Shown: positions 26,584 through 59,160, numbered from the stretch's first letter. The stretch is 64,000 nt of DNA from a virus (IMGVR_UViG_3300042881_004206), one strand, 5' to 3'. Program-made: numbers and translations. The notes: a model not told the origin generated them from the letters alone.

Positions 26584-26658
26584 ACCGACATAGCTCAGCG
26601 GTAGAGCAGCGTCTTGATAAGGCGTTGGTCGGTGGTTCAATCCCACCTGTCGGTACCA
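26584..26658 (+). tRNA. tRNA-Ile(GAU)
   Basis: GCGTC-TT GAT AA-GGCGT; CCA. Confidence 0.93.
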
Positions 26659-26682
26659 TCGATTAAATATAAGGAGAATAAT

Positions 26683-26859: not shown

Positions 26860-26923
26860 TGTAACGGCAGCATACCGGTCTCCAAAACCGTTGGTCGGGG
26901 TTCGAATCCCTGGCGAGGTGCCA
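26850..26923 (+). tRNA. tRNA-Trp(CCA)
   Basis: CT CCA AA loop; acceptor ATCTCGC/GCGAGGT; GCCA. Confidence 0.9.
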
Positions 26924-26938
26924 ATAGAAAGGTTTATT

Positions 26939-27421: not shown

Positions 27422-27422
27422 T

Positions 27423-27497
27423 GGTGTCTATGGTGTAGTGGAAGCATTGCTCTCTGTGAAAGAGTAGGTACGAGGTCGGTACTCGTTAGACACCCCA
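27423..27497 (+). tRNA. tRNA-His(GUG)
   Basis: 8-bp acceptor with G-1:C73; CT GTG AA loop; non-canonical T-loop GTCGGTA. Confidence 0.88.
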
Positions 27498-27512
27498 AAA
27501 TAAGGATTAATT

Positions 27513-27752
27513 ATGAAACCACTAGGTAATAATGTTATTGTGAAACGTGCAGAAAAAAATCTGACAACAGGTTCAGGTATTATTTTGCAAAGAAGTGATG
27601 AAGCCGATTATGGTGTCGTAGTGAATATTGGACCTGATGTTGTTGATGTGTCGATTTCAGACAAGGTACTGTTGGATTGGAATAAAGCACTTCAAATCGA
27701 TAAAGAAAATTATAAAATTTCAATTGATAGTATTATTGCTATCATTGAGTAA
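27513..27752 (+). CDS. Co-chaperonin GroES/gp31-like
   Basis: MKPLGNNVIVKR, TTGSGIIL and GVVVNIGPDV. Confidence 0.88.
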   Translation: MKPLGNNVIVKRAEKNLTTGSGIILQRSDEADYGVVVNIGPDVVDVSISDKVLLDWNKALQIDKENYKISIDSIIAIIE

Positions 27753-27759
27753 ATTTTAA

Positions 27760-27833
27760 GCCTCTTTAGTTTAATGGTAAAACTCCGCCCTTACAAGACG
27801 GTTACGGCAGTTCGATTCTGTCAAGAGGCACCA
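27760..27833 (+). tRNA. tRNA-Val(UAC)
   Basis: CT TAC AA loop (one C-A mismatch in stem); CCA. Confidence 0.9.
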
Positions 27834-27844
27834 GGAGAGATAAA

Positions 27845-28036
27845 ATGTACATAGAAAGCATCCAAAAACTTTTTACCATTTGGCCTGTTTATACTAAAGA
27901 AACGGTATACAAAACATTGGTGGATCCTGTGACGGATAAAAAAGTTGTTGACATTGTGACTTATTATGTGTATAATGACAAAGCAAAAATTGATACGAAT
28001 GAAAACAACAAAACAAACATTGATGTAAAAGTTTAG
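27845..28036 (+). CDS. Small hypothetical protein
   Basis: AGGAG RBS; 63 aa; stop overlaps first base of tRNA-Leu. Confidence 0.55.
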   Translation: MYIESIQKLFTIWPVYTKETVYKTLVDPVTDKKVVDIVTYYVYNDKAKIDTNENNKTNIDVKV

Positions 28037-28112
28037 CCCCGGTGACGGAATTGGTATACGTGTTGGTCTTAGAAGCCAAATTTTAGGAGTTCGACTCTCC
28101 TCTGGGGCACCA
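28036..28112 (+). tRNA. tRNA-Leu(UAG) lacking long variable arm
   Basis: TTGGT-CT TAG AA-GCCAA; V region only ATTTT; A73; CCA. Confidence 0.85.
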
Positions 28113-28118
28113 AATAAA

Positions 28119-28193
28119 CTGGCCGTAGTATAATGGAGAATACAGTTGCCTTCTAAGCAATCAATCCAGGTTCGATTCCTGGCGGCCGGACCA
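28119..28193 (+). tRNA. tRNA-Arg(UCU)
   Basis: GTTGC-CT TCT AA-GCAAT; CCA. Confidence 0.92.
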
Positions 28194-28198
28194 GATAT

Positions 28199-28283
28199 GC
28201 GACTGTGGTGAAATAGGTAGACACAAGAGACTTAAAATCTCTCGACTTCGGTCGTGCCGGTTCGATTCCGGCCAGTCGCACCA
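28199..28283 (+). tRNA. tRNA-Leu(UAA)
   Basis: AGAGA-CT TAA AA-TCTCT; V arm CGAC-TTCG-GTCG; CCA. Confidence 0.94.
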
Positions 28284-28296
28284 TATATAGTAGTAT

Positions 28297-28370
28297 GCGG
28301 GATTAGTTTATCGGTAAAACGAAACCTTGCCAAGGTTTAGTGACCAGTTCGACTCTGGTATCCCGCTCCA
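28297..28370 (+). tRNA. tRNA-Gly(GCC)
   Basis: AAACC-TT GCC AA-GGTTT; U73; CCA. Confidence 0.93.
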
Positions 28371-28388
28371 AATATACCATAATAATTC

Positions 28389-28416
28389 TTGACTCTACAA
28401 ATTTTTCTGTTATAAT
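28389..28416 (+). promoter_or_regulatory. Internal sigma70 promoter in tRNA array
   Basis: TTGACT-16 nt-TATAAT with TG extension. Confidence 0.6.
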
Positions 28417-28428
28417 TAATTCATAAAT

Positions 28429-28496
28429 GCGGTGTGTTGTAGAACAGAGTGGATGTCCAATTCACTTGCTTGGTGCAAACCCAAGACGCCGCTCCA
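28429..28496 (+). tRNA. Degenerate 68-nt tRNA-Gly(UCC)-like RNA
   Basis: Acceptor GCGGTGT/ACGCCGC plus TCCA; tiny D arm; 6-bp anticodon stem with loop TG TCC AA; T-loop TGCAAAC. Confidence 0.7.
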
Positions 28497-28500
28497 AATG

Positions 28501-28575
28501 CGCGGGATGGAGAAGTGGCAACTCGCCAGCCTCATAAGCTGGAGATCGCAGGTTCAAATCCTGCTCCCGCAACCA
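28501..28575 (+). tRNA. Initiator-type tRNA-fMet(CAU)
   Basis: C1xA72 mismatch, CGCGGG 5' end and TTCAAAT T-loop; lacks the three anticodon-stem G:C pairs. Confidence 0.85.
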
Positions 28576-29304
28576 CTAAGAATGCAATTTAAATAAACTG
28601 AGTGCTTCCGGTATTCTTGTTTTTGTGTTCTGGCTTCCCAACAATATAACAATTCGTTGACTGATTCCATTTGTCAACATCATAGCAATACATCCACCAG
28701 ATGCTGTTATGAATCCAGTTTTACTTACAATAAATTCATATTGTTGAACCAACGGATTTGTATTGTTGTAGGTTAAAAATTTATTTTTTGTTGTTTGTAT
28801 TTTTATTGATGGCATTTTACTACTTTCAACAATTTCAGGATAATCTTTTGCCATCATTACAATTTTAATCAGTTCTTCAGCTGTACTGATATTCATTATA
28901 CTTAAACCTGTTGGTTCCACGAATCTGGTCTGTTCCAGGCCATGCATACGCATTTTTAGATTCATACTATAGATACACGCAGAAGTTCCACCAGGATAGT
29001 TCTCACATAATGTTACGGCCGCGGAATTACTTGAATTCACCATTGCCAATTGTATCAATTCTTTCCTTGTCAACTTACCTATTTTTTCATTTAGGTCTTG
29101 TTGTGCATCTAAAACAACCATCGATGTGACCAATTTTGTAATACTGGCAATCGACCTCACATCAGTTGTATTTTTACCTTCAATTATTTTGCCATTTTCG
29201 TCTGACACAATCCAGGCTTTTGCGGTAATAGGCTGTGTTGCGTTAACTGGTTCAGTATAAAATGCGGCGAAAACCAACAATAAAGAAATAATTTTGTATA
29301 GCAA
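28576..29304 (-). CDS. Serine D-Ala-D-Ala carboxy/endopeptidase (peptidase S11, PBP5/PBP7-like), exported
   Basis: Signal peptide; SITK (SxxK), SSN (SxN) and KTG motifs. Confidence 0.9.
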   Translation of the reverse strand: MLYKIISLLLVFAAFYTEPVNATQPITAKAWIVSDENGKIIEGKNTTDVRSIASITKLVTSMVVLDAQQDLNEKIGKLTRKELIQLAMVNSSNSAAVTLCENYPGGTSACIYSMNLKMRMHGLEQTRFVEPTGLSIMNISTAEELIKIVMMAKDYPEIVESSKMPSIKIQTTKNKFLTYNNTNPLVQQYEFIVSKTGFITASGGCIAMMLTNGISQRIVILLGSQNTKTRIPEALSLFKLHS

Positions 29305-29336
29305 TTTAAAATCTCCATAGTGTATACTCTACTTAG

Positions 29337-29519
29337 TCACTGTTTTTTTGTGCCCACCAAACATTCATTCCTAAACTTTTCATTAGCTGAAGCGGCTTTT
29401 CCATAATCAGCCTTTGGATTATTTTCTCTCCAATTCTTTTGTTTTTTTTCGACGCATTTTTCTACCGGATCCGTGCAAGCAACAAGTGTAAATGAAAGTA
29501 ATAAGATTAAATATTTCAT
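29337..29519 (-). CDS. Small lipoprotein
   Basis: MKYLILLLSFTLVAC lipobox; start reassigned to 29519; second Cys pair. Confidence 0.7.
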   Translation of the reverse strand: MKYLILLLSFTLVACTDPVEKCVEKKQKNWRENNPKADYGKAASANEKFRNECLVGTKKQ

Positions 29520-29523
29520 AGAT

Positions 29524-30021
29524 TTATCTCCCGCAACTTCCTGTATTATTACAATATTGGATGAGTTCGTAACCACCCCAAAAAAGTCCAACAAGAAATA
29601 AAAGAATTATAGTTATAGAAATAGACATTTCTATTGCTTCTAAAATTTGTCTTTTTCTTTTGGCTGCAAATTCTTTTGCCCTTCTAGCTTCATGTGCAGC
29701 TTCTATGTCCATTGCTGCAGCTCTTGCTTTTATTTTATTCCAAACATCAATTTTTCCAGCTTGCATAAAAAGAAGTTGCAATTCATTTTCAAATTGTTTA
29801 GCTTGATCTAAGGCCATTTCAATTTGAATGGCTGCACCCATACTGGAACTAGTCCCACTTCTCTTAGCTTCTACTGCGGCTTTTGTTGCGGTGCTTTTGG
29901 CATCAAAATATTTACCCAAAACTGGCCCTAACGATGAAACATCGTCTACCGTTTTTGATATTTTTTTGACCAGCGCTACTGCCGACTGAATGCCGGCTAA
30001 TGCTGTAATTGGATCAATCAT
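29524..30021 (-). CDS. Membrane protein, unknown function
   Basis: Helical N-terminus MIDPITALAG; C-terminal TM ISITIILLFLVGLFWGGY. Confidence 0.7.
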   Translation of the reverse strand: MIDPITALAGIQSAVALVKKISKTVDDVSSLGPVLGKYFDAKSTATKAAVEAKRSGTSSSMGAAIQIEMALDQAKQFENELQLLFMQAGKIDVWNKIKARAAAMDIEAAHEARRAKEFAAKRKRQILEAIEMSISITIILLFLVGLFWGGYELIQYCNNTGSCGR

Positions 30022-30638
30022 TTGTTTGCCAATGGATTATCCATCGCCTTTTGAATCTTACTGTCAACATCTTTCTTCAATGTTTCAACTTCTCTGTTGA
30101 TTTCACGACGAGCTGCGGTAAATTCACTATTGATTTCTTTGCGTGTTTGTTCCATATCCCTACGGATATTGTTTGCTTCTGTTCTAGCCTTCTCCAAATC
30201 CTCACGAACAGCCTTACGCATTTCACGCATTTCAGATTCGGTTTCTCTTTGAGCTTGTTTAACTGAGCGCTCAACTTGTTCAGTAACAGATTCATTTCTA
30301 CGAATATCACTCTTTAAATCATTTTTAATATCTCTAGTGTAATCACTGGTCTTTTGACTGTTTTCTTCAATAACAGCAAGTCGTTTGTCGAAATCCGACA
30401 AATCTGGTGAAACATATTCGGCAATTTTCTTTTTCATTCCCATATAATCTTTGTAGGCTTCAAAAACACCATAAAGACCACCCAATAAAGATGAGACAAG
30501 AGTAAATGCAATCATAAGTTTTGCCGGTGTAAATTCGTAACCACCAACACTGATGACAGTATCTTTGCTGGCATATTTTTTGACAGCAGCTTCCGCTTCA
30601 TCAATTTTTTTGTTTACGTCTTTAATTTCTTCTCCCAT
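30018..30638 (-). CDS. Single-TM coiled-coil protein
   Basis: TM LMIAFTLVSSLLGGLYGVF followed by ~130-aa heptad-rich coiled coil. Confidence 0.72.
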   Translation of the reverse strand: MGEEIKDVNKKIDEAEAAVKKYASKDTVISVGGYEFTPAKLMIAFTLVSSLLGGLYGVFEAYKDYMGMKKKIAEYVSPDLSDFDKRLAVIEENSQKTSDYTRDIKNDLKSDIRRNESVTEQVERSVKQAQRETESEMREMRKAVREDLEKARTEANNIRRDMEQTRKEINSEFTAARREINREVETLKKDVDSKIQKAMDNPLANK

Positions 30639-30639
30639 T

Positions 30640-32430
30640 TTAATTCCTTTTATATTGTTGGTTGACCATTTCTTGATGTAATCTATCCGAACTCATTTGT
30701 CTTAATGCTCGAACATTGTCAACATTTTTCTGTCCTTTATAAATTTCTTTCGGTGCATAAAAAGCCGCATCTGCAATGACAAGATTCAAATACTGATTAT
30801 AACCAACAGGTGTTGTTGCCATTCTAGAAATGTTGACACCACCAGCAATTTCATTATCAGACACATTTGTGTTTACGCTTGTTTTTGGTTGTACAGATGT
30901 TGTTGTTTGTAAGTCAACACCGCGACCTTCTATTATTTGATTAATCGGATTTGTTCTATCGGTCAAAAATCTTTGAGATTCAGACATAGACATTTCGAAA
31001 GATGAAGTAGTTGATTGTTGATTTGTTGAAAACGAAGTTTGAGAAACTTGTGTTGTTTCGGTTGATATTGGAACAAAATTTTGTGTAGTTGCATTTTGTA
31101 ACTGTTGTTGTGGTGGCAATAACGAATATATTATTTGTGTTTGTGCATTTTGAGTTTGTTCTTGGAACAAATTTGTTGTAACCGTGGATTGTACAATCGA
31201 ATTATCTGGAGAAACACTATTTGTTGAACCAAAACGATTTGTATCATTTGCTCTTGTGGTAGAAGTTTGTATGTTAGGCTGAGTAAATGTTGAAACAGAA
31301 GAAGATTGTGTAGTTTGTATTTGATTACTTGACTGATCACTTCTTTGTGCAACTGGACTAATTCTTAAAGAAGAACCAATAAGACTTTGACTACTTGCTA
31401 AACTTGAAGATTGAGCAATATTTACCGCTTCTTGCTGCGCTTGCTGTGCAGTTTGTTCGGCAGCAGCAACAGCATTCTGTGCAGCCTGCATTGCAATAGA
31501 TTGTTCTCTTTGTTGATTTCTAGCAACAACACTCAAACCAATTGAAACGCCATTAGAATTAACAGTTGTTTCTTTATTATTTACAGTTGATGTTAATGTT
31601 ACAGATGGTGTAGCGACTGTAGTTAAGCTCGATTCGGTTACCGGAGATTGTGTTACTGTGGTCGTTGGAGCCTGAGGCATTGTACTTGTGGTGTTTGTGT
31701 TTGTTACAATCTCTGTCGTACTTGTTGGCAAAGGCGGCGTCAGCTTTGCTAGAGCATCAGCAAAACCAGGACAAGTTGGACTATACAATGGATTGTTGAA
31801 ACACGGATCAACCGAATACTTTAAACTGAAACTCACATTGTAAACCTCAGGTCCATAAGGCCCTGCCCAAAAATTATTGTCTCGGCCAACAAAACCATAT
31901 TGCACACTTCCTAAATCTTTTGTAGCAAATGGTGTTGTGAAGTTTTCCGAAAAATTAAAATTGGTCCAATCAAACTTATATGTTAAATCATAGTTTCGAT
32001 TGAAAACAGTTGATCCTTTTGAATCGTAAAAACTCACATAAGCGTTAAGATAGTCAATTCGACCATCGTCCCAACCATTACCGTTTTTCGCTGTGAAACT
32101 AAAATTATAACCATTTACACGCAATCCTGTTCCTGAATTTGGAAGAAGACTGGATATAAGTTGCATCTGATATAAATTTGTAGTACCATATGAAAAATTT
32201 ATATTATTGCCTGGTCGGACAATAGCATTTGGACCACAATATCCGGGATCACCCGAAGCCCAACAAGTCAAACTATCCTGATAAACACCATTGACCCATG
32301 GTGTTGTGTTTGTACCAGAAACAGTCGGTTGCACCACATTTCCTGTGGTGTAAACTTGAGTTGGATCAAGTGTTTGAGCGGTTGCAATTGATGATAAAAA
32401 AACCATCAAAGCAAAAAAGAGATTTTTCAT
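30640..32430 (-). CDS. Exported protein with beta-rich N-domain, Cys motif and Thr/Ser/Gln-rich linker
   Basis: Signal MKNLFFALMVFLSSIATA; DPCFNNPLYSPTCPGF; long low-complexity region. Confidence 0.75.
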   Translation of the reverse strand: MKNLFFALMVFLSSIATAQTLDPTQVYTTGNVVQPTVSGTNTTPWVNGVYQDSLTCWASGDPGYCGPNAIVRPGNNINFSYGTTNLYQMQLISSLLPNSGTGLRVNGYNFSFTAKNGNGWDDGRIDYLNAYVSFYDSKGSTVFNRNYDLTYKFDWTNFNFSENFTTPFATKDLGSVQYGFVGRDNNFWAGPYGPEVYNVSFSLKYSVDPCFNNPLYSPTCPGFADALAKLTPPLPTSTTEIVTNTNTTSTMPQAPTTTVTQSPVTESSLTTVATPSVTLTSTVNNKETTVNSNGVSIGLSVVARNQQREQSIAMQAAQNAVAAAEQTAQQAQQEAVNIAQSSSLASSQSLIGSSLRISPVAQRSDQSSNQIQTTQSSSVSTFTQPNIQTSTTRANDTNRFGSTNSVSPDNSIVQSTVTTNLFQEQTQNAQTQIIYSLLPPQQQLQNATTQNFVPISTETTQVSQTSFSTNQQSTTSSFEMSMSESQRFLTDRTNPINQIIEGRGVDLQTTTSVQPKTSVNTNVSDNEIAGGVNISRMATTPVGYNQYLNLVIADAAFYAPKEIYKGQKNVDNVRALRQMSSDRLHQEMVNQQYKRN

Positions 32431-33689
32431 TCTCTTATAGCTTTAGGAATTTTGTCCGGATTTGCAGCCCAAGCGACTTTAGCTTGTTCACCAATCAAAC
32501 CTTCATATGGGCAAGGTGTACCGGCTGCCATCATGGCATCAAATACTCTACGATCCTGACACATCGTGGCAACTGCGGCAACTTTCATACCCATGTCAAA
32601 TAGTGTTTTGGAAAGTTTTAATCTTTCGCAATTTTGGTCACGCATTGTACCACCAAAACTTAAACCAAAAACTTGAGTTTGTGTAGCACCAGAAACACCA
32701 GTCACGCAAAGGTCTGAGCCCATACTCATCATTGCAGGTGCGATTGCTGTTGGTGGAGGTTGAACAACTTTTTGTGTGACGGTACTTTCATTGATATTGC
32801 GATTGGTCATTTCACCTGACTGAATGTTTTGATTAACATTTGTTGCAGTTGATGTGTTATTATTTTGGTTTACATTTGTACTTGTTGTTTGATTTACATT
32901 ATTATTGTTATAAGTCATTGTTCCAGAATTGATATTCTGATTGACATTTGTACTTTGACTATTGTTTACATTTAAATTTGTATTTCTACTTGTGCTTGTT
33001 GAAGTATTAACATTATTATTGTTATTTGTCATTGTACCAGTATTTTCATTTCTATTAATGTTGGTGCTTGTGCTGACATTATTGTTGTTATATGTCATTG
33101 TACCAGAATTAATGTTATGGTTCGTATTTGTTGAAGTGCTGGTACTTACATTGTTGTTATTGAATGTTTGTGTGCCACTATTAATATTATAATTTGTATT
33201 TGAATTTGTTGATGAGGATGTATTGGTGTTTACATTGTTGTTATTGTTTGTAACTGTTCCACTTTGTACATTATTGTTTGTGTAAGTAACAGAACCGCTC
33301 ATCACATTGTTGTTATTGTTTGTGATAGTGCCATTTGTGGTATTTTGATTGATGTTTGTAACTGTTCCACTTTGCACATTGTTATTATTGTTATTGTAAG
33401 TCACAGTACCGCTGTTCACATTATTGTTTGTGTTGACATTGGTGCTGTTGACGGTACTTGTACTGGTGGTCGTGCTTGTACTGGTACTATTATTGTTTGT
33501 GGTAACGGTACTTGTGCTATTTGAAGTGGAGTTGGTATCCACTAATGTCTTTGAATCATAACTACCTTGATTAATAGGTGTAGTTGTGCTTGTTGTTGTT
33601 CCACCGGTTGTACTCTGCGTACTTGTTGTTTGCGCAAATGCTGTACCCATAACAAAAAGTAAGGCTAAAGCCAACTTTTTGAAGTTCAT
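32427..33689 (-). CDS. Exported Asn/Thr-rich repeat protein with Cys-rich C-terminal domain
   Basis: AAGGAAA RBS before ATG 33689; signal MNFKKLALALLFVMGTAFA; repeats N(V/I)(N/Q)SGT(V/M)T(Y/N)NNNN; C-terminal DLCVTG..QNCERLK..TMCQD..TPCP. Confidence 0.8.
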   Translation of the reverse strand: MNFKKLALALLFVMGTAFAQTTSTQSTTGGTTTSTTTPINQGSYDSKTLVDTNSTSNSTSTVTTNNNSTSTSTTTSTSTVNSTNVNTNNNVNSGTVTYNNNNNNVQSGTVTNINQNTTNGTITNNNNNVMSGSVTYTNNNVQSGTVTNNNNNVNTNTSSSTNSNTNYNINSGTQTFNNNNVSTSTSTNTNHNINSGTMTYNNNNVSTSTNINRNENTGTMTNNNNNVNTSTSTSRNTNLNVNNSQSTNVNQNINSGTMTYNNNNVNQTTSTNVNQNNNTSTATNVNQNIQSGEMTNRNINESTVTQKVVQPPPTAIAPAMMSMGSDLCVTGVSGATQTQVFGLSFGGTMRDQNCERLKLSKTLFDMGMKVAAVATMCQDRRVFDAMMAAGTPCPYEGLIGEQAKVAWAANPDKIPKAIRE

Positions 33690-33747
33690 TTGATTTCCTT
33701 TTAATTTTGTTATGAAAAAAAACATTGGTAAATGTTTCAGGGACATA

Positions 33748-33795
33748 TTGCATGTCCGAACAAAATCATATATAATTGTATCACTCTTATTTATG
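33748..33795. promoter_or_regulatory. Face-to-face promoters: + strand sigma70 and - strand late-type
   Basis: TTGCAT-17-TATAAT (33748-33776, +); CATAAATA on - strand (33788-33795). Confidence 0.5.
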
Positions 33796-33872
33796 CGGGT
33801 AGACAGGTGAAGGGGCCACCAACAGCCTTCCAAGCTGAAGATCGCGGAGTTCGACTCTCCCTACCCGCTCCA
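33795..33872 (+). tRNA. tRNA-Gly(UCC) with irregular D arm
   Basis: Acceptor GCGGGTA/TACCCGC plus TCCA; CAGC-CT TCC AA-GCTG; TTCGACT T-loop. Confidence 0.8.
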
Positions 33873-33893: not shown

Positions 33894-34199
33894 ATGGATA
33901 TAATTGTATTGAAATTAATTACCGGCGAAGAAATCCTAGGTGAAATAGAATCCGAATCGGAAACCGAATTTGTCTTAGTCAATCCAGTAGGAATTGCAGT
34001 TGTTCGTGGCCAGGACGGTGCTCCCAATGTAGGTTTTGCACCATTTCCTATTCATGCCGAACAAAAAAGAGGTTCGACTATTGCCTTGGTGAAGAAACAT
34101 ATTGTATACTCATATGTTCCTGCCGAAGATTTTATCAATAATTATAATCAAATATTCGGTTCTGGAATTATTGTTCCCAACAAACAGCTTATTACATGA
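33894..34199 (+). CDS. Conserved hypothetical protein (Sm-like) upstream of DNA polymerase
   Basis: VLKLITGEEILG...YNQIFGSGIIVP pattern; ATGA coupling to gp43. Confidence 0.6.
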   Translation: MDIIVLKLITGEEILGEIESESETEFVLVNPVGIAVVRGQDGAPNVGFAPFPIHAEQKRGSTIALVKKHIVYSYVPAEDFINNYNQIFGSGIIVPNKQLIT

Positions 34200-36742
34200 G
34201 TTTTTATACAAACGTACAATCTATCGGTGGTAAAATCCTTTACCGTGGTGTAATCGGCGGTAAAAGAGTCAAACAAAAAATTGATTATACACCATCACTT
34301 TACATTCCCTCCAAGAAAGTAACCAATTACAAAACACTGGATGGAAAATATCTCGACAAAAAAGTTTTCGATAGTATTCATGAAGCGAGAGAATACACCA
34401 AACAATTTGATGGTTTAGTGAATGCCACCAAAATCTATGGTAATACCAGATATGAATATGCTTTCATAGCAGATCAACACCCCGAAATGGTCGAGTGGGA
34501 CCAAGATTTGATTTCTATTGCCGTAGTTGATATTGAAGTTGGTTCCGAAAATGGTTTTCCAGATCCTTACGAAGCAAACGAACCAATCACCGCAATCACC
34601 ATAACCTATCTGAATGGGTATACTTATGTCTATGGATGTGGTGATTACAACAACTATGATGATAATGTTTCTTATGTGAAATGTAAGGACGAATGGACAC
34701 TTTGCAAGAGATTCCTTGAAGATTGGATGAACAAATGTCCAGATGTTATCACCGGTTGGAACACCAAGTTTTTTGATATTCCATATCTAATTAATCGATT
34801 CAACCGCATTCTCGGTGAAGATTATGCAAAGAAACTTTCTCCTTGGAATATGATCTCTGAGAGAAATACTGTAATCAATGGTCGACAAATGAAAGCATAT
34901 GAAATTGTCGGTGTTGGTTCTCTTGATTACATTGAACTCTACAAATGGTATGCGCCAGGTGGTAAATCACAAGAATCTTATCGATTGGATAATATTGCAA
35001 ATGTCGAGCTCGGTGAAGGTAAGATTTCGTATGATGAATATGACAACCTGCATCAACTTTACAAACTGAACTATCAGAAATTTATTGAGTATAACATCAA
35101 AGACGTACAACTGATTCTAAAACTTGAAGATAAACTGAAGTTGTTAGAGTTGGCCTTAACTCTTGCGTATGATACCAAGTCAAATTATGAAGACGTTTTT
35201 GCGCAAACAAGAATGTGGGATTCTCTTACATATTCCTATTTGTTGCAACAAAATATTGTTGTTCCTCCGAAAGAAGTAAAAGAGAAAGACTCTGCTTTTG
35301 AAGGTGCTTATGTTAAAGTACCACAAGTTGGAATGCATGAATGGGTGGCCTCTTTCGATCTGAACAGTCTGTATCCGCATCTCATGATGCAGTATAATAT
35401 TTCTCCAGAAACTCTGATCGAACCGGAAAATTATACAGAAGAAATGCGAAATATCATTTCTCAAGGTATCAGTGTTGATAAGTTGTTGGCCAAAAAAGCT
35501 GATTTGTCAAAATTGACTGGTGCAACAATTACACCAAATGGACAATTCTTTCGCACAGATATTCAAGGTTTCTTACCCAAGATGTTGGAAGAAATGTATG
35601 AAGATCGCAAGAAATTCAAGAAGATGATGATTTCTGCAAAACAGGAATATCAGAAAGAAAAAGATCCAAAAGTAAGAAATGAACTTGAAAAGAAGATTGC
35701 ACGATATAATAATCTTCAGTTAGCAAAAAAAGTTTCATTGAACTCTGCTTATGGTGCTCTTGGTTCACAGTATTTCCGATTTTATGATTTGCGAATGGCT
35801 CTTGGTGTAACAACTGCTGGTCAATTGTCAATTCGTTGGATTGAAGCGAAGATTAATGATTATATGAACAAACTTCTGAAGACGGAAGCTGATTATGTTA
35901 TTGCATCGGACACCGATTCAATTTATCTCCGTTTGGGTGATCTGGTCAACAAAGTTTACGGATCAGATGGAAAAGTTTCGATGCCCAAACAAAAAGTTAT
36001 TGACTTCATGGATCGTGTTTGTGAGGACAAGATTCAACCATATATCGATAATTCATACGAAGAATTGGCAAATTATGTTAATGCATATGACCAGAAGATG
36101 CAAATGAAACGAGAAGCCCTGGCCGACAAAGGAGTTTGGACAGCCAAGAAAAGATATATTCTGAATGTATACAACAATGAAGGTGTCGCATACGATGAAC
36201 CATACATGAAAGTTATGGGTCTAGAAATGATTAAGTCTTCCACACCTTCTGCAATTCGCGAAAAAATGAGTCAAACAATTGAATTGATGATGCGTGGTAC
36301 CGAATCTGAAGTACAAGACTTTATTCAGAAATTCAAGGAAGAATTTAAAAGATTACCACCAGAAGAAATTTCTTTTCCTCGTGGTTTGAATGGACTCAAA
36401 ACTTATTCAGATTCGGTAAATCTATACACCAAAGGAACACCGATTCATGTGAAGGGTGCAATTCTATATAATCATTATCTGAAAGAGATGAAATTAACAA
36501 AGAAATATCCTCTCATTCAAGAAGGTGAAAAAATCAAATTCACATATCTAAAAATGCCCAATCATTTCAAAGATATGGTAATTTCTTATCCTGGTAGATT
36601 ACCAAAAGAATTTGGTCTTGACAAATATATTGATTATGATGTACAATTTGAAAAATCGTTTTTGGAACCGATTAGAGTAATTCTTGATTGTATGAATTGG
36701 TCTGCGGAGAAAACAAATTCGATTGAAGATTTCTTTTCATAA
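34196..36742 (+). CDS. gp43: Family B DNA polymerase (unsplit)
   Basis: DIEV exonuclease I, SFDLNSLYPH, KVSLNSAYGALG and ASDTDSIY. Confidence 0.98.
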   Translation: MSFYTNVQSIGGKILYRGVIGGKRVKQKIDYTPSLYIPSKKVTNYKTLDGKYLDKKVFDSIHEAREYTKQFDGLVNATKIYGNTRYEYAFIADQHPEMVEWDQDLISIAVVDIEVGSENGFPDPYEANEPITAITITYLNGYTYVYGCGDYNNYDDNVSYVKCKDEWTLCKRFLEDWMNKCPDVITGWNTKFFDIPYLINRFNRILGEDYAKKLSPWNMISERNTVINGRQMKAYEIVGVGSLDYIELYKWYAPGGKSQESYRLDNIANVELGEGKISYDEYDNLHQLYKLNYQKFIEYNIKDVQLILKLEDKLKLLELALTLAYDTKSNYEDVFAQTRMWDSLTYSYLLQQNIVVPPKEVKEKDSAFEGAYVKVPQVGMHEWVASFDLNSLYPHLMMQYNISPETLIEPENYTEEMRNIISQGISVDKLLAKKADLSKLTGATITPNGQFFRTDIQGFLPKMLEEMYEDRKKFKKMMISAKQEYQKEKDPKVRNELEKKIARYNNLQLAKKVSLNSAYGALGSQYFRFYDLRMALGVTTAGQLSIRWIEAKINDYMNKLLKTEADYVIASDTDSIYLRLGDLVNKVYGSDGKVSMPKQKVIDFMDRVCEDKIQPYIDNSYEELANYVNAYDQKMQMKREALADKGVWTAKKRYILNVYNNEGVAYDEPYMKVMGLEMIKSSTPSAIREKMSQTIELMMRGTESEVQDFIQKFKEEFKRLPPEEISFPRGLNGLKTYSDSVNLYTKGTPIHVKGAILYNHYLKEMKLTKKYPLIQEGEKIKFTYLKMPNHFKDMVISYPGRLPKEFGLDKYIDYDVQFEKSFLEPIRVILDCMNWSAEKTNSIEDFFS

Positions 36743-55743: not shown

Positions 55744-56199
55744 ATGTGGATTTTAGAATGGTTGCCTTTTTGGATATTTTATGTTATACTTCTGATAGGT
55801 GTATTGGGACTGGCTGCAACCTTTCTGATGCGTTTTTTACCTATTCCTGGTCTATATCTTTATAAAACTGCAATACAACTAGTATCGATTGTTCTAGTCG
55901 TTATAGGCACCTATATGTCTGGTGCAATATCAAACGAAGAATCCTGGTTGGCAAAAGTCAAAGAACTTGAAACTAAAGTATCTGAATCCGAAAAAAAGGC
56001 AGCCGAAAAAAATACCGAAATTGTTGAAAAAGTAGTCACGAAGACTCAAGTTATAAAAGAAAAGGGTGATGATATCATTAAGTATGTGGACAGAGAAGTG
56101 GTAAAAAAAGAAGAAGTTGTCAAATTTGTTGAAAACTGTCCTATACCAAATGACATCATTAACGCTCACAATGCAGCTGCAAGCCTAAATAAAAAATGA
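55744..56199 (+). CDS. Putative i-spanin
   Basis: N-terminal TM segments, coiled coil, C-terminal Cys; overlaps lipoprotein gene. Confidence 0.6.
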   Translation: MWILEWLPFWIFYVILLIGVLGLAATFLMRFLPIPGLYLYKTAIQLVSIVLVVIGTYMSGAISNEESWLAKVKELETKVSESEKKAAEKNTEIVEKVVTKTQVIKEKGDDIIKYVDREVVKKEEVVKFVENCPIPNDIINAHNAAASLNKK

Positions 56200-56507
56200 G
56201 ATTAGTTTTACTTATTTTACCATTTTTATTATCGGCTTGCGCAATGTTTAAAACCGTTGTGCCCGTTGAAAGACATTTCCCCGAAGTGCCCAAAACATTA
56301 CAGGAAAAATGTAATGAATTAAAAACTTTACAGGGAGACAAGGTTTCAATTACAGATATGTTAAAAGTTGTGGTTGAAAATTATAGAATGTACTATGAGT
56401 GTTCAACAAAAGTTGAAGGTTGGCAAGAATGGTATGATGAACAACGGAAAATATTTGATGGTGTGGATAAAAAACAAAAATCTTGGTACAATATTTGGAG
56501 TAAATAA
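56196..56507 (+). CDS. Putative o-spanin lipoprotein
   Basis: LLSAC lipobox; FPEVP..C..L...YYEC pattern. Confidence 0.65.
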   Translation: MRLVLLILPFLLSACAMFKTVVPVERHFPEVPKTLQEKCNELKTLQGDKVSITDMLKVVVENYRMYYECSTKVEGWQEWYDEQRKIFDGVDKKQKSWYNIWSK

Positions 56508-56767
56508 TGAAATATTTAATTCTAGCACTCACTTGTCTCTCACTCACTGGCTGTGCAACAGCTAGTAAAGACCAATTATATTACGATACAGCTAAGTCAA
56601 TTAGTAAAGATAATACAATGTCACAAACAGCATGTTGGTCTGCTGTCACCGAAATAGCAAAAGGTGGCGACAACTCAGCTAAAGTTGGTGCAATTGCACT
56701 TGCTGATAGATGCAAAAATGAAACAGTTAAAATTGAAGCTCCAAAAAGAAATTGGATGGGATTTTAA
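56507..56767 (+). CDS. Lipoprotein
   Basis: MKYLILALTCLSLTGC lipobox. Confidence 0.7.
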   Translation: MKYLILALTCLSLTGCATASKDQLYYDTAKSISKDNTMSQTACWSAVTEIAKGGDNSAKVGAIALADRCKNETVKIEAPKRNWMGF

Positions 56768-56777
56768 AGGATAAAAA

Positions 56778-57404
56778 ATGGAATTAACATTAGAACAATT
56801 AAAACAATTACTTCCAAAAAATCCTTATGTAACTCATTGGCATAATGCTCTGGTGCAATTATTTCCTGACTATGAAATAAACACATCTAGAAGAATGGCA
56901 GCATTCATTGCTCAATGTGCTCATGAGTCTGGTGGATTCATGATTCTCACAGAGAATTTAAATTACAAATGGCAAACACTTAGAAAATTATTTCCAAAGT
57001 ATTTTCCTGATGATGCAACCGCACAAAGATACGCATCAATGCCGAACAAACAAGAGGCAATTGCAAATAGAATTTATGCAAGCCGGATGGGTAATGGACC
57101 CGAAGAATCTGGTGACGGATTCAAGTATCGTGGCCGTGGTTTGATTCAACTTACCGGTCGCGATAACTATTCTTGGTTTGCAGCTTCACTAGAAATTTCT
57201 GCCGAAGAAGCAACAGAATACCTAGGCACATTTGAAGGTGCTGCACAGTCCGCGTGTTGGTTCTGGGAAACAAATAAACTCAATCAATGGGCAGATAACG
57301 GCGACATTGTAACTTTGACAAAGCGAATCAATGGTGGAACCATAGGGCTTGATGATCGCATTAAACATTATGAACATGCGCTTCACGTTCTAGGGGGTCA
57401 CTGA
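56778..57404 (+). CDS. Glycoside hydrolase family 19 endolysin
   Basis: FIAQCAHESGGF, YRGRGLIQLTGRDNY, SACWFW and RINGGTIGLDDR. Confidence 0.92.
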   Translation: MELTLEQLKQLLPKNPYVTHWHNALVQLFPDYEINTSRRMAAFIAQCAHESGGFMILTENLNYKWQTLRKLFPKYFPDDATAQRYASMPNKQEAIANRIYASRMGNGPEESGDGFKYRGRGLIQLTGRDNYSWFAASLEISAEEATEYLGTFEGAAQSACWFWETNKLNQWADNGDIVTLTKRINGGTIGLDDRIKHYEHALHVLGGH

Positions 57405-57682
57405 TGAATGATAAAAAATTATTTAAATACCTACTCTTTCTTCTAGTTCTTCCAATTGGACTGGCAATTTTTGGTGGTGACAGATTTCGTTATCCATGTC
57501 AAGATCCAAAAAATTGGGACAAAGAGATGTGTCAAAAGCCACTGTGTGATGTGACAAGAACCTGTCCAGAACACGTATTTAAGGGTCAACGTGATCCTAG
57601 ATTAGGACCTCCAAATGATGCAATCAATAACCAACCTTCTCAACAAATTTGTGTTCCGCAAGGAGTCAGCTGTGGAAAATAA
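57404..57682 (+). CDS. Small membrane-anchored Cys-rich protein
   Basis: N-terminal TM; RYPCQDP..MCQKPLCDVTRTCP. Confidence 0.6.
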   Translation: MNDKKLFKYLLFLLVLPIGLAIFGGDRFRYPCQDPKNWDKEMCQKPLCDVTRTCPEHVFKGQRDPRLGPPNDAINNQPSQQICVPQGVSCGK

Positions 57683-58157
57683 ACCAGAATTTGTATACAC
57701 AGAAGAGCAATTAATGGCTCGTCTGAAATTCTTTATTGGTGTGTGTCTTGCATTAACTCTCACTGGTATTGTGTTCGTTGTTTTATATTCTTTAATTTTC
57801 GTCACACAGCCACTCAATGCAATTTCACCAATCGACCAAAAATTCTTTGAATTAATTGTTCCTATTGCCACATTCTTGACAGGTACACTTTCGGGCATCA
57901 TGTTATCTGGTGCTAAGAAAGAGGATCAAGAAGCCATGTTGGCCGCACAAAAATTGGCTAACGAAAACTTCGAAGCTACTAAGAAGGCAATGGTCGCACC
58001 ACCTCCGCCACCATCGATGCCAACAGTTACAGTAACTGACAAGGGCATAACAATTGGTGCCGGTGCGTCTAACGCTCCCACTCAATCTCCAGGACAAGTC
58101 GTTGTGGGATACGGAGGAAAACTAGCACCTCCACAGTCGCCACATCCTGAGATTTGA
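57672..58157 (+). CDS. Two-TM membrane protein (holin candidate)
   Basis: AGGAG RBS before GTG 57672; two hydrophobic helices; Pro-rich tail. Confidence 0.55.
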   Translation: MENKPEFVYTEEQLMARLKFFIGVCLALTLTGIVFVVLYSLIFVTQPLNAISPIDQKFFELIVPIATFLTGTLSGIMLSGAKKEDQEAMLAAQKLANENFEATKKAMVAPPPPPSMPTVTVTDKGITIGAGASNAPTQSPGQVVVGYGGKLAPPQSPHPEI

Positions 58158-58160
58158 TGA

Positions 58161-58469
58161 ATGCAAATCAAAAGTTTGCTCCAAGATGGTGTTGATGGGT
58201 CTTTAAGTAGTAGGCGCGTCATCACCTTCTTGGCGTTTGTATTTTGTAGTATTGCCTTTTTTGCCAATTTATTTTGGGGTAAAAAAGTAGATTCATTTAT
58301 GTTTGAAGGCATGATGTATATTGCGATAGCTGGATTGGGAGTAACTGTAGCCGAAAAATTTTCAAATAGAAATGCACCGATTATAAACTCACCATATCAC
58401 ACAGAAACAATAAATAGAAAACCAATTTACGGTACACCTTTACCTAAAATACAGGAGAGAGAAATATGA
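58161..58469 (+). CDS. Two-TM membrane protein (holin candidate)
   Basis: SSRRVITFLAFVFCSIAF and YIAIAGLGVTVAEKF. Confidence 0.55.
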   Translation: MQIKSLLQDGVDGSLSSRRVITFLAFVFCSIAFFANLFWGKKVDSFMFEGMMYIAIAGLGVTVAEKFSNRNAPIINSPYHTETINRKPIYGTPLPKIQEREI

Positions 58470-58699
58470 AAGCTATTGCCATCGTAACTCTAATTGCTTC
58501 TTCGCTTTTTTTAAATACATCATTTGCAAATGCACCTAAAGCTGAAGATAAACCGGCCGAAGTTAAAAAAGTTTGCATTGATAAAGTCACAAAAGACGGA
58601 AAGCCAGTTCTCGATAAAGCCGGCAAACAAGTGCAAGAATGTAAAGAAATGAAGGTTCATAAAAAATTAGAAGGAACAAAAGTTCCTGAAAAGAAATAA
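58466..58699 (+). CDS. Small exported protein
   Basis: Signal peptide ending SFA; Lys-rich with two Cys. Confidence 0.6.
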   Translation: MKAIAIVTLIASSLFLNTSFANAPKAEDKPAEVKKVCIDKVTKDGKPVLDKAGKQVQECKEMKVHKKLEGTKVPEKK

Positions 58700-59160
58700 T
58701 GTCTGTAAATACAAAAGGTGAAATTGATATACGGGTCGATGTGGTCGACCTGCAGGTTGATGTTGGTGTGATGAAACAGCAAATCACTAACATCACCTCA
58801 TTATGTGGAAAAATGGATTCACTGATAGAAAAAATGATGGAAAAACAAGATAAAATCGAATCTGAGATTTATAATCATGTTGAAAAGAAACAGGAAGAAA
58901 CAACTTCCGATGTGAAGGAATTACATTCCAGAATTACCACTGTTGATAGAAATCTTTCGGATAAGTTGGAACTTACCGAAAGAAGAATTATGGACGAAAT
59001 TAAATCGTTGAGACAGGAAATCAACGCACACAATCAAAGAGAAGACGACCAAATAGAAAAAATATTGGAGTGGAAATGGATGGCAGCCGGTGGCATTATT
59101 GTAATCGCATGGTTGCTTTCACACGTTAAATTTGATATAATTTCGAAATTATTCGGTTAA
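58699..59160 (+). CDS. Coiled-coil protein with C-terminal TM
   Basis: Heptad region followed by WKWMAAGGIIVIAWLL. Confidence 0.6.
   Translation: MSVNTKGEIDIRVDVVDLQVDVGVMKQQITNITSLCGKMDSLIEKMMEKQDKIESEIYNHVEKKQEETTSDVKELHSRITTVDRNLSDKLELTERRIMDEIKSLRQEINAHNQREDDQIEKILEWKWMAAGGIIVIAWLLSHVKFDIISKLFG

What the first reader, a model, noticed from the sequence alone, without database searches (positions are those of the whole stretch)
28576..33795. Antisense six-gene envelope cassette splitting the tRNA array
Seen: the only minus-strand genes in 64 kb form a tightly coupled operon (overlaps or gaps of a few nt, at most ~30) between tRNA-fMet and tRNA-Gly. Every product is predicted to be exported or membrane-bound: Asn-repeat secreted protein, Thr/Gln-rich secreted protein, TM coiled coil, TM protein, lipoprotein, and an intact D-Ala-D-Ala peptidase. 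A late-type CATAAATA lies upstream. Inference: an uncharacterised system that builds something across or on the infected cell envelope, with the peptidase remodelling peptidoglycan. Possible roles are superinfection exclusion, lysis timing, a surface coat or aggregation. It is separate from the lysis cluster at 55.7-59.2 kb.
Basis: partly seen in the sequence, partly recalled or inferred. Interest (0 to 1): 0.8.

Follow-up and report, generated by a model that had tools for sequence, protein, structure and literature searches.

The report
Exported envelope cassette linked to lysis
A lake-water T4-like phage carries a real backward-facing operon of six exported or membrane proteins. Its conserved core (three exported proteins plus a membrane protein typical of lysis cassettes) lies inside the cell-bursting gene cluster of many related phages, so it is most likely an uncharacterised accessory of host lysis, not a stand-alone six-gene machine.

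Summary
Six tightly coupled minus-strand genes (28576-33689) encode two signal-peptide proteins, two single-pass membrane proteins, a lipoprotein and an intact PbpG/PBP7-like DD-endopeptidase, behind a late-type CATAAATA motif.

The six genes are not one conserved unit.
- In 67 of 67 related viral loci with enough flank, only g1-g2-g3 stay together, in order, on one strand.
- g4 follows in about half of them.
- The lipoprotein occurs only in the closest relatives.
- The peptidase is near in 5 of 43 loci and never on the same strand.

The link to lysis comes from relatives.
- In many T4-like relatives g1-g4 sit inside the lysis cluster, between the GH19 endolysin and holin-like genes.
- In Pelagibacter phage Mosig the trio follows the holin; in Roseobacter phage CRP-810 the g1-like gene lies two genes before the lysozyme.
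- In 67 of 67 small aquatic phage loci a g4 homologue lies just upstream of an endolysin.

My reading is that this is a displaced, inverted piece of the lysis region: an uncharacterised, very abundant accessory lysis or envelope module. The g1 Cys domain matches no solved fold. The g2 N-terminal domain is lectin-like. The mechanism is inferred only.

First-stage notes of this scan flagged the same three-gene module in several other genomes. No follow-up on those was visible to me.

The parts
33788..33795 (-). Late-type promoter-like motif CATAAATA, about 95 nt upstream of the g1 ATG
   Evidence: it is one of only two minus-strand ATAAATA sites in 64 kb, and the motif is depleted overall (13 against 23.7 expected). 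ATAAATA lies within 200 nt upstream of g1 in 16 of 39 dereplicated relatives, against about 4% background per window of that size. Function not shown.
32427..33689 (-). g1: signal peptide, about 280 aa of Asn/Thr/Ser-rich degenerate repeats, then a conserved 4-Cys C-terminal domain of about 100 aa
   Evidence: The C-domain family is very large: 7265 clusters at 90% identity (66-210 aa only) and 1529 clusters at 50% identity, with no Pfam family. The model has pLDDT 79 and shows a beta-hairpin between Cys28 and Cys54 plus 4 helices. No solved fold resembles it. Only the C-domain is conserved; the repeat region varies from 0 to 400 aa.
30640..32430 (-). g2: signal peptide, lectin/CBM-like beta-sandwich (about residues 25-235), disordered S/T/Q stalk with one long helix (294-350), and a conserved C-terminal domain (about 520-596)
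   Evidence: The N-domain has pLDDT about 90. Its Foldseek matches are sugar-binding jelly-rolls (Fbs1 sugar-binding domain, an alginate CBM, phloem lectin, a hyaluronan-binding module; E about 1e-5, TM by target 0.4-0.5). Always directly downstream of g1 in the IMG/VR relatives (67/67).
30018..30638 (-). g3: bitopic inner-membrane protein with a conserved 38-aa cytoplasmic N-terminus, TM 41-59, a variable-length periplasmic coiled coil and a nearly invariant C-terminal DNPLANK tip
   Evidence: Present downstream of g1 on the same strand in 67/67 IMG/VR loci and in most divergent MAG-binned loci. Homologue in Pelagibacter phage HTVC115P gp49.
29524..30021 (-). g4: tail-anchored membrane protein (N-terminal amphipathic helix, helical cytoplasmic domain, C-terminal TM), family phrog_32327; a lysis-cassette gene in other phages
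   Evidence: 6805 clusters; in 67/67 small-phage loci it lies 0.5-2 kb upstream of an endolysin on the same strand. One search gives the cassette anatomy. It is the only copy in this genome.
29337..29519 (-). g5: 60-aa lipoprotein (lipobox LVAC), specific to this lineage
   Evidence: Found only in L007 and L009. No family.
28576..29304 (-). g6: Sec-exported PbpG/PBP7-like murein DD-endopeptidase (Peptidase S11), compact form of about 240 aa
   Evidence: best solved relatives are 6azi and 6muq (E 5e-35); the SxxK, SxN and KTG motifs align; 3442 clusters, mostly 234-255 aa, from metagenomes. Its association with g1-g3 is loose. Elsewhere it is the last gene of a curli-like operon.
28501..28575 (+). 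tRNA-Met(CAT), last gene of the plus-strand tRNA array, abutting the stop codon of g6
33797..33867 (+). Degenerate tRNA-Gly(UCC)-like element on the other flank
   Evidence: 27.5 bits, below the gathering score of 29; missed by ARAGORN. In relatives a normal tRNA-Gly(UCC) sits beside tRNA-Met on the same side of the module.
55744..59160 (+). The genome's own lysis cluster, the place where g1-g4 sit in many relatives: i-spanin-like, o-spanin lipoprotein, GH19 endolysin, Cys-rich small protein, TM proteins, and a coiled-coil protein with a C-terminal TM
   Evidence: phrog_456 Rz-like spanin; phrog_181 endolysin, E 1.5e-73. (synteny). It has no g4 copy.

Best explanation
The cassette is a displaced and inverted piece of this phage's lysis region. 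It is not a self-contained six-gene machine.

Its conserved core has two parts:
- An exported trio. g1 is a periplasmic 4-Cys domain on a long disordered stalk. g2 is a lectin-like domain, a stalk and a C-terminal domain. g3 is an inner-membrane anchor with a periplasmic coiled coil of variable length and a nearly invariant tip.
- g4, a tail-anchored membrane protein that is a regular member of endolysin cassettes in small aquatic phages.

Proposed working (inferred, not shown):
1. The genes are transcribed late.
2. g1, g2 and g6 are exported by Sec, and g3 and g4 insert in the inner membrane.
3. g3 reaches across the periplasm and, through its conserved tip, engages g2 and/or g1.
4. The lectin domain of g2 holds a glycan layer (murein strands or an outer glycan).
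5. The complex then acts at the end of infection together with holin, endolysin and spanins. It either helps take the envelope apart or sets the time of lysis.

The lipoprotein g5 and the DD-endopeptidase g6 are lineage-specific additions. g6 would cut peptide cross-links from the periplasmic side without needing the holin.
For: Shown:
- g1-g2-g3 are colinear on one strand in 67/67 IMG/VR loci with at least 3.5 kb of flank, and g4 is present in 34/67. The trio also holds in divergent loci at 48-70% g1 identity.
- In many T4-like relatives the order is i-spanin, o-spanin, GH19 endolysin, g1, g2, g3, (42-aa ORF), g4, (49-aa ORF), w57404, w57615, w58161, all on one strand with near-zero gaps.
- The endolysin is among the five nearest genes in 14 of 57 dereplicated loci. 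Chance would give about 2-3% (my estimate: 5 of about 200 genes).
- Cultured phages agree. Mosig has GTA_holin_3TM, then a g1-like gene, a g2-position protein, a g3-like protein and primase. CRP-810 has a g1-like gene two genes before the lysozyme. Podovirus MW202481 has g1, a g2-position protein, a weak g3 hit (E 1.8e-4), then holin and lysozyme.
- A g4 homologue lies upstream of an endolysin in 67/67 small-phage loci, inside a cassette that shares the w57404, w57615, DUF4337 and GTA-holin families with this genome's lysis cluster.
- g4 is single-copy here and overlaps g3 by 4 nt.
- A late-type motif lies upstream here and is about 10-fold enriched upstream of g1 in relatives.
- All hosts of cultured phages that carry g1 are diderm Proteobacteria.

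Precedent: lysis cassettes can hold extra membrane proteins aimed at a further glycopolymer layer (LysZ, PMC13123898).
Against: - In about half of the dereplicated loci the module lies among auxiliary or variable genes with no recognisable lysis gene nearby. The linkage is frequent but not obligatory.
- The genome and its relatives already have an endolysin, a spanin pair and holin-like genes, so no gap in the lysis pathway calls for this module.
- No component has sequence or fold similarity to a characterised lysis protein.
- Timing and strand of transcription are not measured. Only two short exact RNA-library contigs over g4/g5 were seen, and DNA carry-over is not excluded.
- Contact between g1, g2 and g3 is not shown.
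Confidence: 0.45

Rival explanations
1. Superinfection exclusion or envelope masking. The exported proteins change or occupy the periplasm or surface of the infected cell. They would block incoming phages, their tail lysozymes or DNA entry, or mask receptors on debris so that progeny are not lost. The logic is that of T4 Sp and Imm or T5 Llp.
For: - All products are exported or membrane-bound.
- The stalk regions of g1 and g2, and the whole g2-position protein, are hypervariable between lineages, as expected in an arms race.
- In about half of the loci the module lies in variable, moron-like regions.
- It has a lectin-like domain.
Against: - Late-type promoter motif, whereas T4 imm and sp are early genes (established knowledge).
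- Recurrent placement inside lysis operons, and translational coupling to g4, a lysis-cassette gene.
- The conserved parts (g1 C-domain 76-98% identical across 80 loci; g3 ends) are under strong purifying selection.
Confidence: 0.2
2. All six genes form one dedicated system that builds a structure across or on the envelope, and the peptidase opens the murein for it.
For: - One tightly coupled operon here.
- Homologues of the peptidase end another exported-protein operon (CsgG, curlin-like, FecR, CHASE2 cyclase) in other phage contigs. That fits a general role as a murein-remodelling helper of envelope assemblies.
Against: - The six genes do not co-occur. g6 is near the module in 5/43 loci, always on the other strand; g5 is in two or three loci.
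- g4 occurs without g1-g3 in 67 small-phage lysis cassettes.
- No outer-membrane channel or secretin is present.
Confidence: 0.1
3. No joint function. The operon is a mosaic of independently acquired genes (the g1-g3 module, g4, g5, g6) that only share a promoter in a variable region next to the tRNA array.
For: - The four parts have different distributions.
- The position beside the tRNAs and auxiliary genes is a known hot spot of variable genes.
- Orientation and location differ even in the closest relatives.
Against: - g1-g2-g3 are inseparable (67/67).
- g4 follows g3 directly in many lineages, and overlapping start/stop codons argue for co-translation.
- GC content matches the genome.
Confidence: 0.12
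4. Secreted fibre or functional amyloid (curli-like or beta-solenoid) built from the Asn-rich repeats of g1.
For: Degenerate 12/24-aa Asn/Thr repeats. Notes on other genomes in this scan made the same guess (unchecked).
Against: - The repeat region is not conserved. Many family members are only a signal peptide plus the Cys domain (97-160 aa).
- No Curlin_rpt hit in g1 and no CsgG in the genome.
- About half of the homologues end in a short hydrophobic tail, which suggests membrane attachment.
Confidence: 0.04
5. Virion (tail or fibre) components.
For: Late motif; weak coiled-coil hits of g3 to tape-measure PHROGs.
Against: - Cleavable signal peptides, a lipobox and TM anchors.
- Location in lysis or variable regions, not in structural modules.
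- The tape-measure hits are composition-driven (E 1e-3 to 1e-2).
Confidence: 0.03

Closest known systems
Two-component spanins (lambda Rz/Rz1; T4 PseT.3/PseT.2) within holin-endolysin-spanin lysis cassettes
   Same: g3 is an inner-membrane-anchored protein with a periplasmic coiled coil. It is encoded beside the endolysin in many relatives and sits behind a late motif. Its variable-length rod with conserved ends suits a periplasm-spanning tether.
   Different: - No conserved lipoprotein partner; g5 is separated from g3 by g4 and is lineage-specific.
- g3 has no Cys and a 38-aa conserved cytoplasmic head.
- Two large secreted proteins go with it.
- A canonical spanin-like pair (55744/56196) co-exists.
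- No Pfam or PHROG spanin hit for g3.
T4 lysis-inhibition set: holin T, antiholins RI (periplasmic) and RIII (cytoplasmic)
   Same: The topology is parallel. g3 has the N-in, single-TM, large-periplasmic-domain layout of T. g1 and g2 are periplasmic like RI. The bulk of g4 faces the cytoplasm like RIII. The host phage is T4-like.
   Different: No sequence hit to these families. The periplasmic part of g3 is a Cys-free coiled coil, not a globular disulfide-bonded domain. The likeness is of layout only and rests on established knowledge of T4.
LysZ of corynephages and mycobacteriophages (PMC13123898)
   Same: It is an extra membrane protein encoded in the lysis cassette, needed to overcome a further glycopolymer barrier. 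This is the same logic I propose for a lectin-bearing accessory module.
   Different: Different hosts (mycolata) and no homology tested or expected. LysZ is a single protein.
E. coli PBP7/PbpG-type murein DD-endopeptidases (PDB 6azi, 6muq)
   Same: g6 aligns over the whole catalytic domain with SxxK, SxN and KTG, and has a signal peptide.
   Different: It is a compact form of about 240 aa with a deletion of about 20 aa after the SxxK helix. Its NCBIfam score (149) is below the equivalog cut-off (294). It belongs to a large clade of about 235-255-aa forms known only from metagenomes, some on phage-sized contigs.
T4 Sp (spackle) and Imm; T5 Llp (superinfection exclusion or receptor masking by exported phage proteins)
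   Same: They are small exported or membrane phage proteins that act in the envelope of the infected cell. In T4, sp lies upstream of the primase gene (recalled, not checked here); in Mosig and in this window the lysis/g1-g3 region lies upstream of the primase gene.
   Different: No sequence hit, and the fold searches with the g1 domain returned no clear match to any solved chain, which does not exclude a relationship. Those genes are early; this operon carries a late-type motif.

Membership tests
Two-component spanin (Rz/Rz1 type) | i-spanin: N-terminal TM plus periplasmic coiled coil | tested here: met
   g3 has a TM at 41-59 followed by about 145 aa of charged helical sequence. This is topology only; no spanin family hit.
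Two-component spanin (Rz/Rz1 type) | o-spanin: outer-membrane lipoprotein gene embedded in, overlapping or adjacent to the i-spanin gene and co-conserved with it | tested here: not met
   g5 is a lipoprotein, but g4 lies between it and g3, and g5 is found in only two relatives (L007, L009). g1 and g2 have SPase I-type signals, not lipoboxes.
Two-component spanin (Rz/Rz1 type) | Periplasmic Cys residues for intermolecular disulfides | tested here: not met
   g3 has 0 Cys.
T4 holin T / RI / RIII lysis-inhibition system | Sequence membership in the T holin, RI or RIII families | tested here: not met
   No Pfam, NCBIfam or PHROG hit of g1-g4 to these families at E <= 0.1.
T4 holin T / RI / RIII lysis-inhibition system | Holin or antiholin activity (membrane lesion; delay of lysis on superinfection) | not testable with these tools
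   Needs expression and infection experiments.
Peptidase S11 / PBP7-PbpG DD-endopeptidase | Catalytic motifs SxxK, SxN and KTG in an S11 fold | tested here: met
   Pfam PF00768 at 124.6 bits (cut-off 27.6). The alignment to 6azi shows ASITK, SSN and KTG in register.
Peptidase S11 / PBP7-PbpG DD-endopeptidase | Equivalog-level identity with PbpG (NF008668) | tested here: not met
   149.3 bits against a curated cut-off of 294. It is a divergent, shortened clade.
Curli / functional amyloid secretion system | CsgA-type curlin repeats and a CsgG channel | tested here: not met
   No Curlin_rpt hit in g1. No CsgG in the 156.6-kb genome.
Phage lysis cassette (gene-neighbourhood definition) | Encoded next to and co-oriented with endolysin or holin genes across lineages | tested here: met
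   g4: 67/67 small-phage loci. For g1-g3: the endolysin is among the five nearest genes in 14/57 dereplicated loci; 16 of the 52 loci with neighbours on both sides have an endolysin, o-spanin, w57404 or w57615 neighbour; and Mosig, CRP-810 and MW202481 agree. In this genome itself the cassette is about 22 kb from the lysis cluster.
Phage lysis cassette (functional definition) | Required for, or modulating, host lysis | not testable with these tools
   Needs knock-outs or complementation.

The most novel reading that the evidence does not exclude
g1-g2-g3 form a new kind of lysis component: a periplasm-spanning complex carrying a lectin. It would grip and release a glycan-based envelope layer or tether that holin, endolysin and spanins do not deal with. 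g4 would be a new class of lysis-cassette regulator or holin. Both are used by very abundant aquatic phages, including phages of SAR11 and Roseobacter.
Probability: 0.2. Interest if true: 0.85.

Novelty: new variant of a known kind. Interest (0 to 1): 0.6.

Why it matters
The g1 Cys domain and g4 are among the commonest uncharacterised proteins of aquatic phages. The g1 domain has 7265 clusters at 90% identity and g4 has 6805, and neither has a Pfam family. They occur in cultured phages of SAR11 and Roseobacter.

How these phages burst their streamlined hosts is largely unknown. This analysis ties both families to lysis cassettes and names cultured phage-host pairs in which deletion and complementation are feasible. 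That turns two 'hypothetical protein' families into a testable question about the last step of infection, which controls carbon release in lakes and oceans.

The work also shows that the eye-catching features of the finding are local accidents: six genes, the antisense strand, the split tRNA array and the peptidase.

Tried and rejected
- **Complex prediction.** A job with the g1 C-domain, g2 480-596 and g3 120-206 gave no verdict (score 0.00). It is neither support nor evidence against binding.
- **Fold searches for the g1 domain.** Foldseek against the PDB gave a best E of 0.87. VIA-align against 48,161 chains gave a best Z of 2.4. The Atlas returned only viral hypothetical clusters. A PDB profile search gave 0 hits.
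- **Family scans.** Pfam, NCBIfam and PHROGs gave nothing informative for g1, g2, g3 or g5. The coiled-coil hits of g3 (tape measure, MutS2, ZorA) are composition noise.
- **Other sequence searches.** tblastn of g2 against 50,697 phage records found no match. Atlas feature searches for g2 and g4 returned only unnamed viral clusters, plus a weak DUF642/CBM lead for g2.
- **Outer-membrane pore idea.** I considered that the Gly/Ser-rich hairpin of g1 inserts in the outer membrane as an oligomeric pore. I set it aside because about half of the homologues carry a short C-terminal hydrophobic tail, which would keep the domain at the inner membrane.
- **'OmpA family' label.** The annotation of the CRP-810 homologue is not supported by Pfam.
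- **Genome search for the g1 domain.** All 46 hits are metagenome-derived assemblies (MAGs or single-cell genomes) of mixed taxonomy, so they give no host call.
- **RNA evidence.** One metatranscriptome holds two short exact contigs over g4/g5 at depth 2-3, without strand information and with DNA carry-over possible. This is not counted as proof of transcription.
- **Curli-like operon.** The operon seen with g6 homologues is absent from this genome and from the module loci.
- **Literature.** Three full-text searches found no description of the module.

Full report
**What the window is.** The window lies in a 156.6-kb single-contig virus record, on its minus strand. It is a T4-like myovirus.
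- Its gp43 DNA polymerase (34196-36742) is about 50% identical to those of cyanomyophages.
- It carries 22 tRNA genes at 25129-28575.
- Near-identical copies of the studied stretch occur in lake and freshwater metagenomes of 13 studies. One is a single contig of a 2016 run spanning 28215-33852, so the arrangement is real.

**Check of the observation.** Six minus-strand ORFs occupy 28576-33689. Their junctions are a 4-nt overlap, a 1-nt gap, a 4-nt overlap, a 4-nt gap and a 32-nt gap.

| Gene | Coordinates | Size | Features |
|---|---|---|---|
| g1 | 32427-33689 | 420 aa | AFA\|Q signal peptide; 22% Asn, 19% Thr; degenerate 36/72-nt tandem repeats; 4 Cys, all in the last 100 residues |
| g2 | 30640-32430 | 596 aa | signal peptide; T/S/N/Q-rich |
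| g3 | 30018-30638 | 206 aa | one TM at 41-59, then charged helical sequence |
| g4 | 29524-30021 | 165 aa | single C-terminal TM |
| g5 | 29337-29519 | 60 aa | LVAC lipobox |
| g6 | 28576-29304 | 242 aa | TTG start with GGAG 8 nt upstream; signal peptide; Peptidase_S11 |

- g6 scores 124.6 bits against Peptidase_S11. It is closest to PBP7/PbpG-type DD-endopeptidases (NF008668 E 1e-43; PDB 6azi and 6muq at E 5e-35), with SxxK, SxN and KTG in register.
- All other minus-strand ORFs of 90 aa or more in the window overlap longer plus-strand ORFs. The whole genome does have a few other opposite-strand blocks.
- CATAAATA lies at 33788-33795 on the minus strand. ATAAATA is depleted in the window (13 against 23.7 expected), and its plus-strand copies sit mostly just upstream of genes, as expected of a real late-promoter element.
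- The flanking 'tRNA-Gly' is a sub-threshold tRNA-like element: 27.5 bits against a cut-off of 29, and not called by ARAGORN.
- GC content matches the rest of the genome.

**Do the six genes travel together?** They do not travel as six.
- The C-terminal Cys domain of g1 has 324 relatives in IMG/VR. It has 7265 clusters at 90% identity among proteins of 66-210 aa alone and 1529 clusters at 50% identity. None has a name or a Pfam family.
- With profile HMMs on the fetched loci, all 67 loci with at least 3.5 kb downstream of g1 also have g2 and g3, and g3 is always on the same strand. 34 of the 67 have g4.
- g5 is found only in the two closest relatives.
- The peptidase lies within 10 kb in 5 of 43 well-flanked loci and is never on the module's strand.
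- The trio persists in more divergent, MAG-binned contigs at 48-70% g1 identity.
- It also occurs in cultured phages. Pelagibacter phage HTVC115P has gp54 as g1, gp53 in the g2 position and gp49 as g3 at 36% identity. Pelagibacter phage Mosig has genes 202, 201 and 200, the last ending NPLAG.
- Between distant lineages the middle gene is not alignable, but it keeps its build: signal peptide, beta-rich head, low-complexity stalk and C-terminal piece.

**Where the module sits elsewhere.**
- In many T4-like relatives the order is i-spanin-like, o-spanin lipoprotein, GH19 endolysin, g1, g2, g3, a 42-aa ORF, g4, a 49-aa ORF, then the w57404, w57615 and w58161 families. All are on one strand with near-zero gaps. 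These are the families of this window's own lysis cluster at 55744-59160.
- Among 57 dereplicated loci the endolysin is among the five nearest genes in 14. I estimate chance at about 2-3%.
- 16 of the 52 loci with neighbours on both sides have a neighbour from the endolysin, o-spanin, w57404 or w57615 families. The count is 25 of 52 if a DUF4337 membrane protein is included.
- In Mosig a GTA_holin_3TM holin directly precedes the g1-like gene, and the block ends at the primase gene. This window's lysis cluster ends at the same place.
- In Roseobacter phage CRP-810 the g1-like gene is two genes upstream of the lysozyme.
- In podovirus MW202481 the trio precedes holin and lysozyme.
- In roughly half of the lineages the module instead lies among auxiliary or variable genes (ferredoxin oxidoreductase, PhoH, carbamoyltransferase and others).
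- The window-type placement, antisense between gp43 and the tRNA array, is shared by one subgroup only. In the closest relatives (L007, L009) the module runs with the tRNAs.
- In L067, L068 and L085 a normal tRNA-Gly(UCC) lies beside tRNA-Met on the far side of the module. The split tRNA array is therefore local to this lineage.

**g4 is a lysis-cassette gene in its own right.**
- Its family (phrog_32327; 6805 clusters) was first seen in two small Manatee Spring phages, next to holin/M15 peptidase or lysozyme.
- I fetched 80 loci around the small-phage form. All 67 with at least 2 kb downstream have an endolysin 0.5-2 kb downstream on the same strand: 59 GH19 like this window's, 7 lysozymes and 1 M15. 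None has g1 or g3.
- One cassette reads: small coiled-coil+TM protein, g4, 50-aa TM protein, Cys-rich lipoprotein (w57404 family), TM+Pro-rich protein (w57615 family), Rz-like protein, GH19. The other reads: g4, DUF4337, GTA-type holin, GH19.
- This genome has one g4 copy. It is in the minus-strand operon, overlapping g3 by 4 nt, and the lysis cluster has none.

The operon is therefore functionally tied to lysis even though it lies about 22 kb from the lysis cluster.

**What the proteins look like.**
- *g1 C-domain* (model pLDDT 79): a beta-hairpin closed by the first Cys pair, followed by four helices carrying the second pair. No solved structure resembles it: Foldseek best E 0.87, VIA-align best Z 2.4 over 48,161 chains. 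Atlas neighbours are viral hypotheticals. About half of the homologues add a short hydrophobic C-terminal tail; the window's copy does not.
- *g2*: residues 25-235 fold with pLDDT about 90 into a beta-sandwich. Its best matches are sugar-binding jelly-rolls: the Fbs1 sugar-binding domain, an alginate CBM, phloem lectin and a hyaluronan-binding module (E about 1e-5). A long helix spans 294-350. The conserved C-terminal 80 residues are poorly modelled alone.
- *g3*: a strongly conserved cytoplasmic head, a TM and juxtamembrane stretch, a coiled coil whose length varies by whole blocks (174-217 aa overall), and a nearly invariant C-terminal DNPLANK. This is the pattern of a spacer rod with two docking ends.
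- *g6*: belongs to a large clade of compact (about 235-255 aa) PBP7-like enzymes known only from metagenomes. On two other phage-sized contigs it is the last gene of a CsgG / curlin-like / FecR / CHASE2-cyclase operon, which this genome lacks.

**How it most likely works.**

Shown:
- It is a late-motif operon.
- All six products carry sequence signals for export or membrane insertion.
- g1-g2-g3 are an inseparable trio.
- The trio is recurrently embedded in lysis operons.
- g4 is a regular lysis-cassette member.

Inferred:
- g3 anchors in the inner membrane and spans the periplasm.
- Its tip docks g2 and/or g1.
- The lectin head of g2 binds a glycan layer.
- The assembly acts with holin, endolysin and spanins at the end of infection, either as an extra envelope-disrupting device or as a timing device. 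Its layout parallels T4's T, RI and RIII.
- The Sec-exported DD-endopeptidase would nick cross-links independently of the holin.

I put 0.45 on 'accessory lysis module displaced from the lysis cluster', and about half of that on the disrupting rather than the regulating version. A precedent for extra lysis-cassette membrane proteins aimed at another glycopolymer layer is LysZ (PMC13123898).

**Rivals.**
- Superinfection exclusion or envelope masking (0.2). It fits the hypervariable stalks and the moron-like locations, but fits the late motif and the lysis-operon embedding less well.
The distributions speak against it.
- A functionless mosaic (0.12).
- An amyloid fibre (0.04).
- Virion parts (0.03).

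**Novelty and verdict.** No paper in the searched library describes the module. First-stage notes of this scan flagged the same trio in several other genomes, without follow-up. It is a real feature of unknown mechanism, built from families without known relatives, and attached to a known process. I class it as a new variant of a known kind, with interest 0.6. A 0.2 chance remains that it represents a truly new lysis function.

Noticed in passing
L132:1-7729 and L134:1-7714 (other phage-sized contigs, 166.7 and 67.7 kb): An operon of CsgG (PF03783), a secreted curlin-repeat-like protein, FecR, a 409-aa repeat protein, a CHASE2+guanylate cyclase and, last, a homologue of the g6 peptidase. This looks like a phage-borne curli-like secretion and signalling operon. 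It is absent from this genome.
   Followed up: partly
L136-L215 (for example L137:4384-7410, L199:4849-7073): A recurrent lysis-cassette layout in small aquatic phages: a 51-70-aa coiled-coil+TM protein with a 'HEAVCAERY'-like motif, g4, a 50-aa TM protein, a Cys-rich lipoprotein, a TM+Pro-rich protein, an Rz-like protein and GH19. A variant has g4, DUF4337, GTA-type holin and GH19. Several of these families have no described function.
   Followed up: partly
L055:12640-12768, L076:12679-12807, L063:13259-13441, L020:5209-5352: A conserved micro-ORF (42-60 aa) lies between g3 and g4 in many relatives. It has a hydrophobic start and an invariant 'ECVRWTWSGDVYNRKV.CLEWRK' core with two Cys. The window has none.
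   Followed up: no
window 33797-33867 (+): A tRNA-Gly(UCC)-like element is below Rfam's gathering score and missed by ARAGORN. Relatives have a normal tRNA-Gly(UCC) next to tRNA-Met on the other side of the module. The isolated copy here may be a non-canonical or decaying tRNA.
   Followed up: partly
L104:11572-12279, L088, L110, L087, L056; L033:3544-4035: A class-3 lipase (PF01764) lies just downstream of the g1-g3 module in 5 dereplicated loci. A signal-peptide staphylococcal-nuclease-like protein lies nearby in 5. These are further exported enzymes in the same neighbourhood.
   Followed up: no
window 57404-58469 (+): In this window the w57404-family protein lacks the lipobox Cys that its relatives have (LLAGC/LLASC against LAIFGGD here). 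It may be secreted or TM-anchored rather than lipidated in this phage.
   Followed up: no
window, whole: ATAAATA is about half as frequent as in shuffled sequence (13 against 23.7). It sits mainly in short gaps just upstream of plus-strand genes (for example 1442, 5181, 6488, 24454, 40558, 47678, 54400). A usable map of candidate late promoters.
   Followed up: partly
L216:4461-5408 (Ralstonia phage RSP15 ORF122): A g1-domain homologue in a cultured Ralstonia phage also lies beside a tRNA array. This is a second case of the module next to tRNAs, in an unrelated phage family.
   Followed up: no
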